Origin: Candidatus Cloacimonadales bacterium
Lineage (GTDB): Bacteria; Cloacimonadota; Cloacimonadia; G963667145
Direction: 5' to 3'
Assembly (NCBI GenBank): GCA_965140615.1
Contig: OZ223280.1
Location: 1,268,077-1,332,076 of the forward strand
DNA length: 64,000 nt
Shown: one piece after another, positions 36,224 through 51,737 of the stretch
How positions within the stretch are numbered: the first letter of the stretch is position 1
Layout of the letters: each line of letters begins with the position of its first letter
Position numbers and translations under genes: made by a program
The notes under the pieces: generated by a model
Told to the model about the DNA's origin: nothing
Database searches by the model: none
The model's input: the letters and a program-made list of their open reading frames with translations, nothing else

Positions 36224-37073
36224 CTGTGAGAAGTTTCAGGAGTTCTTCTTTTTGAGATTTTGATTGATACGAAAAGACGACCTTGCCCTTGCTATTGCTT
36301 CCTTGGACTTTCACGGAGACATTGTACTTATCTTTTAAGAGGTGCTCCAGCTGGGAGAAGTCTAGCTGAGCTTTTTTATTTTTAACGATTGTGGCAGAAG
36401 ATTTGACCAAAGACTCGCTGGCTCGCACAGATAGCCCTTTTTGGGCGATAGTGGCAGCGATAGCCTCTCGTTGCTCTGGCTCGGCTTGCATTATCACCTT
36501 GGCGTGTCCCATGCTTATCTTTTTTTGTAAGAGGAGCTCTCTTATGGAGTTCTCTAGGCTCAAAAGGCGAAGAAAGTTGGAGATAGTAGTACGGTCTTTG
36601 CCCATAGCGGTGGCTATCTCGCTGTGAGTGTAGTTGAACTCTTCTCGTAGCCTTTGGTAACTGGCAGCCTCTTCGATGGGGTTCAAGTTCTCTCGCTGAA
36701 CATTTTCGATGATAGCTAGCTGGAGCATCTGTTGTCTGGTAGCCTCACGGATGACTACGGGTACTTTTTCCAGATTTGCCAGTTTTGCCGCTTGTAGTCG
36801 TCGCTCGCCGGCTATCAGCTCGTAGCGACCTTCCTCTTGTTGAGTAACTATCAGTGGCTGGATGATGCCGTTCTCGATGATGGAGTCTCTGAGTTCTTCC
36901 AGTTTCTCTTGGTCGAAGTGCCGTCTGGGCTGATAGCGGTTGGGGAAGATAGATTTGGGGCTTAGCTCGTTTATGGGGCTAGCTTCTTGGTTGTCAGTCT
37001 CTTGGGATGTCGGTTTGAAGTCAACAGGCTTAATAAGGGCTTCCAAGCCACGACCCAGTTTTTTTTTGGTCAT
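36213..37073 (-). CDS. parB: Chromosome partitioning protein ParB
   Basis: GERRLQAAKLANLEKVPVVIRE, a ParB box / HTH. Confidence 0.9.
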   Translation of the reverse strand: MTKKKLGRGLEALIKPVDFKPTSQETDNQEASPINELSPKSIFPNRYQPRRHFDQEKLEELRDSIIENGIIQPLIVTQQEEGRYELIAGERRLQAAKLANLEKVPVVIREATRQQMLQLAIIENVQRENLNPIEEAASYQRLREEFNYTHSEIATAMGKDRTTISNFLRLLSLENSIRELLLQKKISMGHAKVIMQAEPEQREAIAATIAQKGLSVRASESLVKSSATIVKNKKAQLDFSQLEHLLKDKYNVSVKVQGSNSKGKVVFSYQSKSQKEELLKLLTDEK

Positions 37074-37825
37074 CGTGCTACCACCTCTTTGACTAGGTTT
37101 AGGTAATCTTGAGCTCCGCGAGAGGTGATGGCGTAATCAAAGATGGTTTGACCAAAGCTAGGAGACTCGCTGAGTTTGACATTTCTGGCGATGTAAGTTT
37201 TGAAAAGCTTATCGCCAAAGTAGTTTTTGACATCCTCTTCCACTTGCTGACTGAGGTTGAGCCTCTTGTCGTACATAGTCAGGAGCACGCCTAGTATCTC
37301 TAAGGTAGGGTTAAGGCTGTTTTGGATCAGCTTGATGGTGTTCAGTAGCTGGCTGACACCTTCCAAGGCGTAGTACTCGCATTGGATAGGCAATAGCACA
37401 TGGGTGCTGGCAGTCAGGGCGTTGATGGTCAGTAGTCCCAGCGATGGTGGGCAGTCGATGATGATGTACTCGTAATCTTCCAAGATGGGTTGTAAGGCGT
37501 TTTTTAGCTTTTGTTCACGGGCGTACTCTTTTACTAGCTCTATTTCCGCTCCAGTTAGGTTGATGTCCGCAGGCACTACATCCAGTTTTTTGTAGTTGGA
37601 TTTGACGATGCAAGACTTGATGCTTTTTTCCCCGATGAGCATTTTGTAAACTTGGCTATTGACTTTGCTTTTGTTTATGCCGATGCCCGATGTGGAGTTG
37701 CCTTGCGGGTCTAAATCTATGAGCAGGGTTTTCTTTTCGTAAACTCCCAAAGCTGCTGACAAGTTCACAGAGGTGGTGGTTTTGCCCACTCCACCTTTTT
37801 GATTGACGACTGATACTACTTTCAT
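37070..37825 (-). CDS. parA: Chromosome partitioning ATPase ParA/Soj
   Basis: KGGVGKTTTSVNLSAALG, a deviant Walker A motif. Confidence 0.9.
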   Translation of the reverse strand: MKVVSVVNQKGGVGKTTTSVNLSAALGVYEKKTLLIDLDPQGNSTSGIGINKSKVNSQVYKMLIGEKSIKSCIVKSNYKKLDVVPADINLTGAEIELVKEYAREQKLKNALQPILEDYEYIIIDCPPSLGLLTINALTASTHVLLPIQCEYYALEGVSQLLNTIKLIQNSLNPTLEILGVLLTMYDKRLNLSQQVEEDVKNYFGDKLFKTYIARNVKLSESPSFGQTIFDYAITSRGAQDYLNLVKEVVAR

Positions 37826-46665: not shown

Positions 46666-46741
46666 GGGGCATTAGCTCAGTTGGTAGAGCACTACACTGG
46701 CAGTGTAGGGGTCAGCGGTTCAAGTCCGCTATGCTCCACCA
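46666..46741 (+). tRNA. tRNA-Ala, anticodon GGC, with encoded CCA
   Basis: Cloverleaf: acceptor stem GGGGCAT/ATGCTCC with the G3·U70 alanine identity pair; D-arm AGCTCAGTTGGTAGAGC; anticodon loop CTGGCAG; T-arm GGTTCAAGTCC; 3' ACCA. Confidence 0.9.
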
Positions 46742-48200: not shown

Positions 48201-49904
48201 ATGACTGCTGTAATAGTAATAGTAGGTCTAGTACTGTATGTTCTGCTGTACAAAGTGTACGGTAGCAAATTGGCGAAGATGGTGAAAGCCAGTGATGCGA
48301 ATGAGGCTCCGTCTTCGAGGCTCAGAGACGATGTGGATTATGTTCCTGCAAAGGCTTCTGTGCTGTTTGGGCATCATTTTGCATCAATCGCTGGGGCAGC
48401 TCCAATAATTGGTCCCGTGTTGGCTCTTGCTTGGGGTTGGATGCCAGCTTTGCTCTGGATTTGGTTTGGTAACATCTTCATCGGGGCAGTGCACGATTAT
48501 TTGGCGATAATCTCGTCCGTGCGTTACGATGGTAAATCTTGCCAGTTCGTGGCTGCCGATGTGATAGGAGCTCGTACTAGTAGGATTTTTTATTGGCTGG
48601 TGTTTTTTATGATTATCTTGGTGATATCCGCTTTTGGTGCTGTGGTCGGAGGGATGTATGTCTCTCAGCCAGCGGTGGCGTCTTCTTATGTGCTCAAGCT
48701 GGTGGCTGCTCTTATCTTGGGGCAATTGATGTATAAGGTAAAGATGAATTTCCACTTGGCGACTGCCATCGGAATTGTTCTCTTGATTTTTGCCATTATT
48801 GGCGGAACTTGGATGCCCATCAAGCTTGGTTGGGGAGCGTGGATGCTGATTATCGGGGTGTATATCGTAGTGGCGTCTTCTGTGCCGGTGAACATCTTGC
48901 TGCAACCCCGGGACTACCTGAACTCTTGGCTGTTGTACTTTGGGCTTGTGATAGGGCTTATCGCTGCTGTATTTAGCTTTTCTAGTTTCACAGCTCCTGC
49001 TTTCACCTCTTTTGCTCCGATCATCTCGGGTGGCAAACCTACGCCGTTTTGGCCTGCTATCGTCTTGATCATCGCTTGTGGCTCTTTGTCGGGCTTTCAC
49101 GCCTTGGTAGGCTCTGGCACGACATCCAAACAAGTGGCTAAAGAGAGCGATGTGATGACCATCGGCTACGGCTCGATGCTTACAGAGGGATTTTTATCCA
49201 CAATCGTGTTGGTTTCGTTGGCTGGTTTTTCTTTTGGAATCTTGCAAGAGGCTGGCACGGGCATCACTCTGGAGAATTGGGGGATGAAATACACCTCAGC
49301 TATGATGGGTAATTTCCCGAAAGCTTCCATGTTTGTGGAGTCTTATGCCAAGATGGTGGGGGCTACTTTCCTGAATGTAATTCCAGTGCGATTTGTGAAA
49401 GTGATAGCCGGTATGTGGGTTGCATCTTTTGCTATGACCACCTTGGACACTACTAATCGCTTGGGCAGATACGCCATTTGTGAGGTTTGTGCTCCTCTTA
49501 AAGATAGCTCATCAACTTTGTACAACTTCTTGACTAACAAATGGATAGCTTCATCTATCCCAGCTTTGATAGGACTGCTTTTGGCTTACACCAAAAGCTT
49601 TACCGTGCTTTGGCCTTCGTTTAGCACTGCTAACCAGCTGATAGCCTCTATTACGCTTTTCACCAGTGTGGCTTGGCTACAAAAGAGGTTGAAGGTGAAA
49701 AAGCTGAATATTGTGCTGGTACCTGCTTACCTTTTGTGGATTACCGTTACAGCCGCTATCTTGTGGTTTAGCGTTGTGGTGCTTCCGGGTACTATCGCTG
49801 CTAAGCCTTTCACCGGTTACACCGTGATGGGTATTGAGGTGATTATGATTGTTCTCAACTTTATCTTCTTCTACGATTTTTTGAAAACGAGAAAGAAGGT
49901 GTAA
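48201..49904 (+). CDS. cstA: Carbon starvation protein A family transporter
   Basis: HHFASIAGAAPIIGPVLA, a CstA signature; 567 aa polytopic. Confidence 0.85.
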   Translation: MTAVIVIVGLVLYVLLYKVYGSKLAKMVKASDANEAPSSRLRDDVDYVPAKASVLFGHHFASIAGAAPIIGPVLALAWGWMPALLWIWFGNIFIGAVHDYLAIISSVRYDGKSCQFVAADVIGARTSRIFYWLVFFMIILVISAFGAVVGGMYVSQPAVASSYVLKLVAALILGQLMYKVKMNFHLATAIGIVLLIFAIIGGTWMPIKLGWGAWMLIIGVYIVVASSVPVNILLQPRDYLNSWLLYFGLVIGLIAAVFSFSSFTAPAFTSFAPIISGGKPTPFWPAIVLIIACGSLSGFHALVGSGTTSKQVAKESDVMTIGYGSMLTEGFLSTIVLVSLAGFSFGILQEAGTGITLENWGMKYTSAMMGNFPKASMFVESYAKMVGATFLNVIPVRFVKVIAGMWVASFAMTTLDTTNRLGRYAICEVCAPLKDSSSTLYNFLTNKWIASSIPALIGLLLAYTKSFTVLWPSFSTANQLIASITLFTSVAWLQKRLKVKKLNIVLVPAYLLWITVTAAILWFSVVVLPGTIAAKPFTGYTVMGIEVIMIVLNFIFFYDFLKTRKKV

Positions 49905-49937: not shown

Positions 49938-50207
49938 TTGAAGTTTGACTTTTTGAAAAGGGCATGGGAAACCATGGAAACTGTGCATCGTGGCAAGGCT
50001 GTAGAGGCTTTGCAAAACGAGCTGACGGAGATGGAAAATATGTTTTGTCTTTTGTCGATGAGCGGTCTGCTAGGTTTTCCCATGCCTATTTTTTATCATA
50101 GCTTGGAGTATTTGCCCGATATGCAAGCGGAGTGGCAAAAATTTTTTCACAAAGCTGAACGGGCAGACGATATGCTGGCGAGCATAGCGGGGATGAGCGA
50201 GCTGTGA
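49938..50207 (+). CDS. Small hypothetical protein with a central hydrophobic segment. Its TGA stop overlaps the GTG start of the next gene.
   Basis: Start is TTG (49938) or an in-frame ATG (49974). Hydrophobic stretch FCLLSMSGLLGFPMPIFY. Confidence 0.4.
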   Translation: MKFDFLKRAWETMETVHRGKAVEALQNELTEMENMFCLLSMSGLLGFPMPIFYHSLEYLPDMQAEWQKFFHKAERADDMLASIAGMSEL

Positions 50208-51112
50208 GGCTGGTAATTTTGCTAGGTAAAGGGGGAGTGGGCAAGTCCACTTGCTCTTCGGCATTGGCTTGGCAGCTAGCGAATAGGGGGCAGAAGACGC
50301 TTTTGGCTTCTTTCGACCCCGCACACAACTTGGGAGACATCTTCTCCCGCAAATTTGGCAGAAAGATTAAAAAATTTTCTGCAAACCTCGATGTATTGGA
50401 AGTCGATACGCAAAAAGCTGCCGACGAATATATCTCCAAAACTAAAGATTTGCTTAAGCAGGTTTACTCTTACAACACTGCCTACAATGTGGACGACTAC
50501 TTCAAGCTGTTTCGCTATTTGCCGGGAATACAAGAGTATGCGTCCCTCACTGCGTTGCTGGGACTGTTGCAAAAAAACAGCGAGAAATATCAGAATATTG
50601 TGCTAGACACACCACCCACAGGGCTTGCTTTGCAGATTTTGGCGTTGTCGTCTGTGTCGCTTAAGTGGTTGCGAGAGCTAAAAAGGTTGCGAGCAAAGAT
50701 ACTAAACGCAAGGCATGCCATCGCTTCTATCAGCGATAGGGATAACGAGCTCCGTTGCAGACAGGCGATGAAAACCGACCCAGTGTTACTAAAAATCGAG
50801 AAGATGCTTGCCGACTATAGTTGGCTAGAGAGTTTGCTCAAGGGAAGTCAGACGCACTGTGGTATCGTTACCAATCTGGATTTGCTTTCCCAAAAAGAGT
50901 CGCAGAGGATAAAAAAGAGTCTCAAAGATATTGGCATTCCACTGCGGTTTGTCCTTGTAAATAAAGTGGTAGCGGGTAGCCAAGAGAAAATATCCCAGAT
51001 TAAAAAAAGTTTGGCAGAGAAAGAAACTCTCTGTCTAGAGGTAGCCAGCAATCCTAAATATTGCGATTTTGCCGAAGATTTGAGCAAAATTTTATCAAAA
51101 GAGAGAGACTAA
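50204..51112 (+). CDS. ArsA/Get3-family ATPase, single-domain, ~300 aa
   Basis: LLGKGGVGKSTCSSALAWQLA (deviant Walker A), DPAHNLGD, DTPPTG (A-loop / switch). GTG start. Confidence 0.75.
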   Translation: MRLVILLGKGGVGKSTCSSALAWQLANRGQKTLLASFDPAHNLGDIFSRKFGRKIKKFSANLDVLEVDTQKAADEYISKTKDLLKQVYSYNTAYNVDDYFKLFRYLPGIQEYASLTALLGLLQKNSEKYQNIVLDTPPTGLALQILALSSVSLKWLRELKRLRAKILNARHAIASISDRDNELRCRQAMKTDPVLLKIEKMLADYSWLESLLKGSQTHCGIVTNLDLLSQKESQRIKKSLKDIGIPLRFVLVNKVVAGSQEKISQIKKSLAEKETLCLEVASNPKYCDFAEDLSKILSKERD

Positions 51113-51113
51113 A

Positions 51114-51737
51114 ATGGAACAAGATCCGCTTTTTTATCTATTCGTAGTGCTGACCATAGCGTTGGCTTTCGCTTACTTTGTGGGTGCCAGAGGCAATAAG
51201 AGAAGGTCCAGAGCGACTTTTGGCGTATTGGAGCAGGTGCTGCAACCCAGCAAGAAGAACTACACCAACATCGGTGGGCTGATAGGTTACAACTTCAACT
51301 ACGCCAAGCTGAAAGCCAAAAGAGTGTCGCACATCAACGGCGTGCTGACGATGCTCCCCAGACAGTCGCCTTTGTATCTGCCCATAGCCAAGCTTTTGGG
51401 GCGGAGAGATAAGCTGTATATGACAATTTTTGTTACCAATGTGCAACCCGGTGGTGCTTGGCACATCGTACACAGCAAATGCAAAGAGAGCATAGATATG
51501 GGAGATTTGACGCTAAAAAAGTTGTCTGTAGCTGGGGAAAGTTTCGAGCTTTTTTACCAAAACGAAGAAGATTTTACGATGTTGGAGCGGTTTATTACCA
51601 AGGTAAGCCCCAAACACCTTCGTCATATGGGGTATCATCCGCAAGACAAATCTTTTGCGATGTATTGGCTTCCTAGTAATTTTTGGCAAGAGCTGAAAGA
51701 AAGTTACGCTTTTATTTGCGGTATTGTAAATAGATAG
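51114..51737 (+). CDS. Hypothetical protein with a single N-terminal TM anchor, translationally coupled to the ArsA-like gene
   Basis: The ATG lies 1 nt after the upstream TAA. LFYLFVVLTIALAFAYFVGA is a TM segment. No family recognised. Confidence 0.4.
   Translation: MEQDPLFYLFVVLTIALAFAYFVGARGNKRRSRATFGVLEQVLQPSKKNYTNIGGLIGYNFNYAKLKAKRVSHINGVLTMLPRQSPLYLPIAKLLGRRDKLYMTIFVTNVQPGGAWHIVHSKCKESIDMGDLTLKKLSVAGESFELFYQNEEDFTMLERFITKVSPKHLRHMGYHPQDKSFAMYWLPSNFWQELKESYAFICGIVNR

What the first reader, a model, noticed from the sequence alone, without database searches (positions are those of the whole stretch)
49938..51737. Coupled three-gene cassette: small hydrophobic protein, single-domain ArsA/Get3-like ATPase, N-anchored membrane protein
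The three ORFs are translationally coupled (TGA/GTG overlap, then a TAA-A-ATG junction). The central protein is a ~300-aa single-domain member of the ArsA/Get3 deviant-Walker-A ATPase family. It is not the duplicated ~580-aa arsenite pump ATPase, and there is no ArsB or ArsD anywhere nearby. Its partners are an 89-aa protein with one central hydrophobic hairpin and a 207-aa protein with one N-terminal TM helix, and neither matches a family I recognise. This resembles a GET-like membrane-protein targeting or insertion module more than a metal-resistance operon, and would be an undescribed system if conserved.
Basis: inference. Interest (0 to 1): 0.55.

Follow-up and report, generated by a model that had tools for sequence, protein, structure and literature searches.

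The report
CstA transporter operon with ArsA-like ATPase
The three genes are real, but they are the tail of a four-gene operon headed by the CstA nutrient transporter, a type noted from genome comparisons in 2010 and never tested; its last protein is predicted to fold like CCDC47, a eukaryotic membrane-protein assembly factor.

Summary
The cassette is incomplete, though. A 567-aa CstA transporter gene (48201-49904) ends 33 nt upstream. The order CstA, 89-aa protein, ArsA-like ATPase, 207-aa protein holds in every related locus long enough to show it (87 loci held). These come from Cloacimonadota (the window's lineage), Syntrophales, Spirochaetota and Hippea, plus a Desulfurococcaceae archaeon.

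This is the cstA-cstX-arsA-cstY operon type that Castillo & Saier described from genome comparisons in 2010, so it is not an undescribed system. ORF1 is CstX (Pfam DUF7990). ORF2 is a single-domain ArsA/Get3-family ATPase with no metalloid-binding cysteines and no Get3 CxxC motif. ORF3 is CstY, previously reported only in five archaea.

Most likely the three proteins form an ATPase module attached to CstA. A CstA-dedicated assembly (GET/PAT-like) role is the main rival. Arsenic resistance is excluded. No part of the mechanism has been tested experimentally.

The parts
48201..49904 (+). cstA: 567-aa multipass CstA-family transporter.
   Evidence: PF02554 CstA at 2.6e-120 over residues 3-517. 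Partial match to the E. coli pyruvate/H+ symporter CstA model NF011590 (1.1e-57, far below its equivalog cut-off). About 12 hydrophobic peaks. AAGGAGG ribosome-binding site 6 nt before the ATG. Lies directly upstream of the cstX homologue in every related locus that extends far enough.
49938..50207 (+). cstX: 89-aa DUF7990 protein, predicted as two long helices joined by a conserved hydrophobic G-[FL]-P-x-P-P turn.
   Evidence: The identical protein P0035 carries a precomputed PF25952 (DUF7990) hit. It aligns with the DUF7990 genes of Syntrophales, Spirochaetota, Hippea and an archaeon; invariant residues are E31, E33, N34, F36, L38, G46, P50, E65 and D78. Weak hit to NCBIfam cory-CC-star (1.2e-6). 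AF2 model of only moderate confidence (pLDDT 68): helices 2-43 and 59-88. Hydropathy is borderline for a transmembrane segment.
50204..51112 (+). arsA-like gene: 302-aa single-domain ArsA/Get3/TRC40-family deviant-Walker-A ATPase, of the CstA-associated clade.
   Evidence: PF02374 at 4.4e-49 and TIGR00345 at 173 bits (cut-off 135). Closest solved relatives are Chlamydomonas ARSA1, archaeal Get3 and ArsA. Family-conserved motifs are GKGGVGKST, DPAHN, DTPPTGLTLR and NPD..LS..ES.R; there is no CxxC and no conserved Cys in 77 members.
51114..51737 (+). cstY: 207-aa protein with an N-terminal membrane anchor and a cytoplasmic alpha/beta domain predicted to have the CCDC47 fold.

Best explanation
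The locus is a four-gene operon, cstA-cstX-arsA-cstY, in a Cloacimonadota genome. CstA is a multipass uptake carrier; family members import pyruvate and peptides. The three downstream proteins are its dedicated accessory module.

Inferred mechanism: a homodimer of the single-domain ArsA-like ATPase is held at the cytoplasmic face of the membrane next to CstA. It is held there by the N-anchored CCDC47-fold protein CstY and by the small helical-hairpin protein CstX. ATP binding and hydrolysis by the ATPase are then coupled to CstA activity. The coupling could energise uptake, as ArsA does for ArsB, or gate it according to the cell's energy state.

Shown here: gene identities, strict synteny across bacteria and archaea, tight gene packing, absence of arsenic-related and Get3-specific motifs, and the predicted fold of CstY. 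Inferred: that the four proteins form a physical complex, the role of ATP, and the substrate.
For: (1) Synteny. In every one of the 87 related loci that extends far enough, the order is CstA, DUF7990, ArsA, CstY on one strand. The loci come from Cloacimonadota, Syntrophales/Syntrophaceae and Spirochaetota. A complete Desulfurococcaceae archaeon genome and Hippea maritima show the same order.

(2) Packing. The genes overlap or nearly touch: the GTGA overlap and TAA-A-ATG junction here, the same in L009, and 4- and 8-nt overlaps in Hippea. This fits co-translated subunits of one complex.

(3) Independent prior analysis. Castillo & Saier found 26 CstA-ArsA operons, 24 of them with CstX, and co-evolving trees for CstA, ArsA, CstX and CstY. 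They proposed that the ArsA homologue energises CstA with CstX as the linker (PMC2963123).

(4) Precedents. E. coli CstA needs the small adjacent protein YbdD for pyruvate uptake (PMC5847655). [quoted passage not shown]

(5) The ATPase keeps an intact P-loop, switch I and switch II, so it is probably catalytically active.

(6) Topology. The CstY anchor is followed by RGNKRRSR, so by the positive-inside rule its globular domain lies in the cytoplasm, where the ATPase is.
Against: There is no experimental evidence of any kind for this operon type. No complex prediction could be run, so the protein-protein contacts are entirely inferred. CstA-family carriers that have been studied work as proton symporters without an ATPase. 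CstY is optional across the wider family: Castillo & Saier saw it in only 5 of 26 operons, so the core mechanism cannot depend on it. My locus sample was drawn using CstY as the query, so it cannot show how often CstX and ArsA occur without CstY. The eukaryotic relatives of both ArsA (Get3) and CstY (CCDC47) act in membrane-protein biogenesis, not transport. The substrate of this CstA subfamily is unknown; it matches only the N-terminal half of the E. coli CstA model.
Confidence: 0.5

Rival explanations
1. A client-dedicated biogenesis machine. The Get3-like ATPase, the CCDC47-like membrane protein CstY and CstX would insert, fold or assemble the large multipass CstA. Alternatively they would insert CstX's hydrophobic hairpin next to CstA. 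ATP would drive capture and release of hydrophobic segments, and CstY would serve as the membrane receptor.
Against: The Get3 zinc CxxC motif is absent in 0 of 77 members. CstY has no counterpart of the CCDC47 C-terminal latch helices, which contact the ribosome and Sec61; the protein ends after the globular domain. CstX shows no similarity to Asterix. Strict one-to-one linkage and translational coupling with a single transporter gene fits stoichiometric subunits better than a catalytic chaperone. Most CstA genes, E. coli's included, need no such factor.
Confidence: 0.22
2. A general tail-anchored-protein targeting factor: a true prokaryotic Get3 serving many clients that merely happens to lie next to cstA.
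For: Membership of the TRC40/GET3/ArsA subfamily and similarity to archaeal Get3 structures 3ug6 and 3zq6.
Against: The gene is invariably embedded between cstX and cstY, downstream of cstA, across phyla and across domains. That is not expected of a housekeeping factor. There is no CxxC motif, and no Get1/Get2-like receptor was recognised.
Confidence: 0.03
3. An arsenite/antimonite resistance ATPase.
For: Only the family name. There are partial matches to the ArsA equivalog models (92 bits) and to the ArsA structures 1f48 and 9nbl.
Against: It has a single domain rather than the duplicated ~580-aa form, and it scores far below the ArsA equivalog cut-off (92 against 650 bits). There are no conserved cysteines at all. 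No arsB, acr3, arsD, arsR or arsC lies in the neighbourhood here or in the related loci with listed genes. Castillo & Saier found no arsenic genes in any cst operon.
Confidence: 0.02
4. A ParA/MinD-like positioning or scaffolding system. It would localise CstA in the membrane, for example at the poles, without affecting transport or insertion.
For: ArsA/Get3 belong to the same deviant-Walker-A group as MinD and ParA (weak MinD/ParA model hits).
Against: The best family match is clearly ArsA/Get3, not MinD/ParA (173 bits against about 25-31). Nothing in the sequence points to a membrane-targeting amphipathic helix or to DNA binding.
Confidence: 0.05

Closest known systems
cstA-cstX-arsA(-cstY) operons (Castillo & Saier 2010, Int J Microbiol, PMC2963123)
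   Same: Same gene content, sizes and order: CstA, a ~90-aa CstX, a single-domain ~300-330-aa ArsA homologue and a ~210-aa single-TMS CstY, with no ars genes. An archaeal (Desulfurococcaceae) cassette with a 329-aa ATPase contains members of the same DUF7990 and CstY families as the window.
   Different: The paper reported CstY in five archaea only. Here CstY is found in Cloacimonadota, Syntrophales, Spirochaetota, Hippea and Brevinematia. The paper gave no structural assignment for CstX or CstY. The system has never been tested experimentally.
ArsAB arsenite efflux pump
   Same: An ArsA-family ATPase encoded with a multipass secondary-type carrier. The working model is the same: a peripheral ATPase attached to the carrier.
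   Different: Single domain rather than a duplicated pseudo-dimer. No metalloid-binding cysteines. Switch II reads DTPPTGLTLR rather than DTAPTGHT. The partner is CstA, an uptake carrier, rather than ArsB or Acr3. There is no ArsD or ArsR.
Get3/TRC40 with the Get1/Get2 receptor (tail-anchored protein insertion)
   Same: Same ATPase subfamily (TIGR00345) and a single-domain architecture that presumably forms a homodimer. It is encoded next to a membrane-anchored protein with a cytoplasmic domain that could act as a receptor.
   Different: No CxxC zinc motif (0 of 77 members). No Get1/Get2 or WRB/CAML homologue. It is tied to one transporter gene rather than acting as a general factor.
CCDC47 (PAT complex subunit of the eukaryotic multipass translocon; Pfam PF07946)
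   Different: Only 13% sequence identity, below the Pfam threshold. CstY has no lumenal N-terminal domain and no C-terminal latch helices. No Asterix-like partner was detected. Its genomic partners are a Get3-like ATPase and a transporter, not Sec61 and the ribosome.
E. coli CstA-YbdD and BtsT-YjiX-YjiA
   Same: A CstA-family carrier followed by a small co-functional protein. YbdD is needed for pyruvate uptake (PMC5847655). From my own knowledge, the btsT locus also encodes a P-loop NTPase, YjiA.
   Different: YbdD and YjiX are DUF466 proteins ending in CC. The DUF7990 family shows no detectable similarity to them (hhalign probability 0.1%). YjiA is a COG0523 GTPase, not an ArsA homologue. There is no CstY equivalent.
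TtfA-MmpL3 (mycobacterial trehalose monomycolate export)
   Different: A much weaker structural match. There is no ATPase partner, the transporter family is unrelated, and the system is confined to mycolic-acid bacteria.

Membership tests
cstA-cstX-arsA-cstY operon type (Castillo & Saier 2010) | A CstA-family transporter gene in the same operon | tested here: met
   48201-49904, PF02554 at 2.6e-120, ending 33 nt upstream of ORF1. It is conserved in every related locus long enough to show it.
cstA-cstX-arsA-cstY operon type (Castillo & Saier 2010) | A ~90-aa CstX with one hydrophobic segment, between cstA and the ATPase gene | tested here: met
   ORF1 is 89 aa and belongs to DUF7990. It is homologous to the gene at the same position in bacterial and archaeal cassettes. 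I could not compare it directly with the paper's own CstX sequences.
cstA-cstX-arsA-cstY operon type (Castillo & Saier 2010) | A single-domain ArsA homologue of ~300-330 aa, with no ars genes | tested here: met
   302 aa with one PF02374 domain. The family mean is 310 aa. No ars genes were found nearby.
cstA-cstX-arsA-cstY operon type (Castillo & Saier 2010) | A ~210-aa single-TMS CstY downstream of the ATPase gene | tested here: met
   ORF3 is 207 aa with one N-terminal TMS. The same family occupies that position in a Desulfurococcaceae archaeon (215 aa), the order to which the paper's Staphylothermus example belongs.
ArsA/Get3/TRC40 ATPase family (PF02374, TIGR00345) | Score above the curated cut-offs; deviant Walker A GKGGVGK[ST]; switch I DPAHN; switch II DTxPTG | tested here: met
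   167.8 bits (cut-off 24.3) and 173 bits (cut-off 135). GKGGVGKST, DPAHN and DTPPTG are conserved at 90% or more in the family.
Arsenical pump-driving ArsA (TIGR04291) | Duplicated ~580-aa protein, metalloid-binding cysteines, DTAPTGHT motif, adjacent arsB/acr3/arsD | tested here: not met
   92 bits against a 650-bit cut-off. It has one domain, no conserved Cys, and Leu in place of the motif His. No ars genes are nearby.
Get3/TRC40 tail-anchored protein targeting factor | CxxC zinc-binding motif at the dimer interface | tested here: not met
   0 of 77 family members contain CxxC.
Get3/TRC40 tail-anchored protein targeting factor | A hydrophobic client-binding groove and a Get1/Get2-type receptor | not testable with these tools
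   The structure tool accepted no deep alignment for ORF2 and cannot model complexes. No Get1/Get2 family hit was seen for ORF1 or ORF3.
CCDC47 (Pfam PF07946) | Sequence score above the Pfam gathering threshold | tested here: not met
   15.8 bits against 27.7 for ORF3. The best family member reaches 24 bits. Profile searches against PDB sequences found nothing.
CCDC47 (Pfam PF07946) | A single transmembrane helix followed by the characteristic cytosolic alpha/beta globular domain | tested here: met
CCDC47 (Pfam PF07946) | C-terminal latch helices/coiled coil, a lumenal N-terminal domain and an Asterix partner | tested here: not met
   ORF3 begins 4 residues before its transmembrane helix and ends with the globular domain. 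CstX shows no similarity to Asterix, whose sequence I supplied from memory.
DUF466 / CC-star small partners of CstA (YbdD, YjiX; NF041419 cory-CC-star) | Model score above cut-off and a C-terminal Cys-Cys | tested here: not met
   28.4 bits against 80 for cory-CC-star. ORF1 ends in MSEL. hhalign against YbdD gives probability 0.1%; the recalled YbdD sequence was validated as PF04328 at 1.6e-30.

The most novel reading that the evidence does not exclude
CstX, the ArsA-like ATPase and CstY together form a prokaryotic, ATP-driven, client-dedicated membrane-protein assembly machine. It would pair a Get3 homologue with a true CCDC47 homologue, and it is present in archaea and bacteria. CstY would then be the first recognised prokaryotic relative of the PAT-complex subunit CCDC47. 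It would point to a prokaryotic origin for part of the eukaryotic multipass translocon, and to an ancestral functional link between the Get3 and CCDC47 lineages.
Probability: 0.15. Interest if true: 0.85.

Novelty: new member of a known kind. Interest (0 to 1): 0.5.

Why it matters
The operon type links a widespread nutrient carrier to an ArsA/Get3-family ATPase, and it has had no experimental follow-up since it was noticed in 2010. It sits in energy-limited anaerobes that ferment amino acids and peptides (Cloacimonadota, Syntrophales, Thermococcales, Desulfurococcales; physiology from general knowledge), where the way uptake is powered or gated matters for physiology.

The new element is the predicted CCDC47 fold of CstY. 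Papers on the multipass translocon describe the PAT complex as conserved throughout eukaryotes and mention no prokaryotic relative (PMC12572126). In the searchable library I found no paper linking CCDC47 to CstA or TtfA.

If the relationship is real homology, it has two consequences. It provides a simple, genetically tractable prokaryotic system for asking what the CCDC47 globular domain does. It also makes the origin of this translocon subunit testable.

Tried and rejected
- **CstX as an Asterix relative.** hhalign of the DUF7990 alignment against human Asterix (sequence from memory) gave probability 0.2%. Rejected.
- **CstX as a DUF466 (YbdD/YjiX) relative.** hhalign probability 0.1%. Rejected, although the weak cory-CC-star hits leave a remote link possible.
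- **Sequence-level link of CstY to solved structures.** Profile searches with A1 and A3, and a single-sequence search with P0016, against PDB sequences found nothing relevant. The CCDC47 link therefore rests on the predicted fold plus sub-threshold Pfam hits.
- **Promoter and terminator scan of 47.9-52 kb.** No more sites than in shuffled sequence, so it was uninformative. The Rfam scan found only a tRNA upstream of hisD and no riboswitch.
- **Structure prediction of CstX with a deep alignment.** For the same reason I did not submit a fused or paired construct of CstX, ArsA and CstY. The 5-sequence CstX model is only moderately confident (pLDDT 68), so I did not run a fold search on it.
- **Unavailable searches.** The afdb50 fold library was not available. 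So I could not sample cstX/arsA cassettes independently of cstY.
- **Exact-sequence lookup of the window's own CstY.** It returned no contig. The organism was instead inferred from the nearest genome hits.
- **The UniRef name 'DUF3137' for the Hippea CstY.** Not reproduced by a Pfam scan.
Full report

Yes. The ORF list places an 89-aa ORF at 49938-50207 (TTG start), a 302-aa ORF at 50204-51112 (GTG start) and a 207-aa ORF at 51114-51737 (ATG start), all on the + strand. The sequence shows the GTGA start/stop overlap between the first two. It also shows TAA, one A, then ATG between the second and third.

The central protein matches Pfam ArsA_ATPase (4.4e-49). It passes the curated cut-off of the TRC40/GET3/ArsA subfamily model (173 against 135 bits). 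It reaches only 92 of the 650 bits needed for a true arsenical pump ATPase.

ORF3 has one strong N-terminal hydrophobic helix followed by a run of basic residues. The central hydrophobic stretch of ORF1 is only borderline for a membrane span. All three have clear homologues in other phyla, so they are genes and not chance ORFs.

**2.

Immediately upstream, ending 33 nt before ORF1, lies a 567-aa CstA-family transporter gene (48201-49904; PF02554 at 2.6e-120). It has a strong AAGGAGG ribosome-binding site.

The first two distant ORF3 homologues I looked up (about 30% identity) both sat in the order CstA, DUF7990, ArsA_ATPase, ORF3 homologue. The look-ups returned eight places in all, several of them near-identical copies.

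A scan of one genome per species with the ORF3 family alignment returned 79 loci. They come from:
- Cloacimonadota, with 60-77% identity and chromosomes of about 1.55 Mb, which identifies the window's lineage;
- Syntrophales, Syntrophaceae and Smithella;
- Spirochaetota.

I called ORFs in all 87 loci held at that point and searched them with the four window proteins or family profiles. Every locus long enough to show it has CstA, X, ArsA and Y in that order on one strand. The few 'CstA-ArsA-X-Y' strings in that output are artefacts of over-extended ORF starts.

A broader profile search added Hippea, Brevinematia and a Desulfurococcaceae archaeon. The archaeon's complete genome and Hippea maritima carry the same cassette. 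The conserved unit therefore has four genes and spans both prokaryotic domains. The cassette's G+C content (0.457) matches that of the window (0.444), and there is only one copy in the window.

**3. It has been described before.**

Castillo & Saier (2010, PMC2963123) examined operons encoding ArsA homologues. They reported 26 cases in which a single-domain ArsA homologue of about 300-330 aa is encoded with cstA. In 24 of these a ~90-aa single-TMS 'CstX' was present, and in five archaea a ~210-aa single-TMS 'CstY' as well. They found no arsenic genes in any such operon.

Their trees suggested that CstA, ArsA, CstX and CstY co-evolve. They proposed that the ArsA homologue energises CstA with CstX as a linker. 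Their archaeal cluster 14 includes Staphylothermus marinus with a 329-aa ATPase. The Desulfurococcaceae cassette found here also has a 329-aa ATPase.

The sizes, order and content match the window exactly, so the window is a new bacterial instance of that operon type. A full-text search for papers naming both CstA and ArsA returned eight, of which only this one concerns these operons. I found no experimental work on the system.

**4. The individual proteins.**

- **ORF1 = CstX.** The identical database protein carries Pfam DUF7990 (PF25952), as do the genes at this position in the other loci. The local Pfam copy appears to lack that model. The family alignment shows an invariant E-x-E-N-x-F...G-x-P...E...D pattern around a hydrophobic turn, typically G-[FL]-P-x-P-P. 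A shallow-alignment AF2 model (pLDDT 68) gives two long helices joined by a low-confidence loop at that turn. Members weakly match NCBIfam 'cory-CC-star' but do not end in Cys-Cys.

- **ORF2 = the ATPase.** Among 77 cassette-linked relatives, GKGGVGKST, DPAHN, DTPPTGLTLR (DTPPTGLALQ in the window) and NPD..LS..ES.R are conserved. No cysteine is conserved, and none has a CxxC motif. It therefore lacks both the ArsA metalloid site and the Get3 zinc site. The closest solved relatives are Chlamydomonas ARSA1, archaeal Get3 and ArsA.

- **ORF3 = CstY.** It matches no Pfam or NCBIfam model above threshold. It nevertheless defines a well-conserved family with the motifs PLFYLF, TNIGG, LPRQS, D99 and H117. 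An exhaustive profile search found 252 representative clusters.

**5. The new result: CstY is predicted to have the CCDC47 fold.**

An AF2 model of ORF3 built from a 22-sequence alignment without templates is confident (pLDDT 92.5, pTM 0.86). It shows a long N-terminal helix (residues 5-43) followed by an alpha/beta domain.

Independently, 21 of 22 family members give sub-threshold hits to Pfam PF07946 (CCDC47), with a best E-value of 1.5e-4. For one member the hit extends over about 100 residues (2.5e-5, 24 bits against the 27.7-bit cut-off).

Sequence identity is only 13%, and direct sequence searches of the PDB find nothing. So the link is a strong predicted-fold match with weak sequence support. 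It is not formal family membership.

CstY corresponds to the transmembrane helix plus globular domain of CCDC47. It lacks the lumenal N-terminal domain and the C-terminal latch helices that contact the ribosome and Sec61.

The translocon papers I read describe the PAT complex as conserved throughout eukaryotes and mention no prokaryotic relative. No paper in the searchable library links CCDC47 with CstA or TtfA.

**6. How it most likely works.**

Several observations point the same way:
- The linkage to one transporter gene across phyla and domains is strict.
- The genes are tightly packed or overlapping.
- Castillo & Saier reported that the proteins co-evolve.
- There are precedents: ArsA with ArsB; the small protein YbdD, which E. 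coli CstA needs for pyruvate uptake (PMC5847655); and TtfA, which acts with MmpL3 (PMC6593404).

I therefore favour a stoichiometric accessory module. In this model an ATPase homodimer is held at the cytoplasmic face of CstA by CstY and CstX, and ATP binding and hydrolysis are coupled to carrier activity. The data cannot say whether that coupling energises uptake or gates it.

The main rival is a CstA-dedicated assembly or insertion machine. It is attractive because both Get3 and CCDC47 act in membrane-protein biogenesis in eukaryotes. It is weakened by the missing Get3 and CCDC47 hallmark elements and by the one-transporter linkage.

A general tail-anchored-protein pathway, arsenic resistance and a ParA-like positioning role are unlikely, for the reasons given under the rival explanations. 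Every step beyond gene identity, synteny and predicted fold is inference.

**7. Verdict.**

This is a new (Cloacimonadota) member of a known but experimentally untouched operon type.

Two additions go beyond the 2010 description. CstY is widespread in bacteria, not confined to archaea. CstY is also predicted to share the CCDC47 fold. Interest is moderate, and it would be high if the CCDC47 relationship proves to be homology with a shared biogenesis function.

Noticed in passing
L089:1900-3822 (Hippea maritima CP002606) and L090:1403-3130: The cstA gene upstream of the Hippea cassette has an in-frame TAG near codon 75. The alignment to the window's CstA runs straight across it (E 5.6e-193). The gene is uncalled in the genome record and is split in two in an independent read assembly. 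It may be a pseudogene or a read-through site.
   Followed up: partly
Spirochaetota loci, e.g. L020:3197-3838, L043:6938-7606, L019:4328-4972, L062:7660-8316: Many spirochaete cassettes carry a second, divergent CstY paralogue (profile E-values mostly 1e-26 to 1e-43). It lies either just upstream of cstA or just downstream of cstY.
   Followed up: no
L027:2753-3733 (-) and L039:2614-3543 (-): Two spirochaete loci have a second ArsA-like gene on the opposite strand, directly upstream of cstA (E 4e-72 and 3e-69 to the window's ATPase).
   Followed up: no
window 50204-51112 and family alignment: This ATPase clade has a distinctive switch II. It reads DTPPTGLTLR in most members (DTPPTGLALQ in the window), with Leu where ArsA/Get3 have the His of DTAPTGHT. 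It could serve as a signature for finding the clade.
   Followed up: partly
window 48201-49904: The cassette-linked CstA (567 aa) matches only the N-terminal half of the E. coli CstA equivalog model (residues 4-341, 196 bits against a cut-off of 1188). It is shorter than the 701-position E. coli model. This suggests a distinct CstA subfamily.
   Followed up: no
window 46666-46738: A tRNA gene (Rfam, 67.7 bits) lies between the sigma-factor-like ORF and hisD. A sub-threshold antisense-RNA match (HPnc0260, 40 bits against 59) overlaps it and is probably chance.
   Followed up: no
window 37070-37825 (-): This is the only other ORF in the window with similarity to the ATPase (E 9.7e-7, 21.8 bits). 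From its size (251 aa) and the weak score I take it to be an unrelated deviant-Walker-A ATPase (for example ParA/MinD/Mrp-like); I ran no family scan on it.
   Followed up: no
P0249 (Hippea maritima CstY): UniRef labels this protein 'DUF3137 domain-containing'. A Pfam scan at E <= 5 shows only the weak CCDC47 hit, so the name looks outdated or transferred from another protein.
   Followed up: partly
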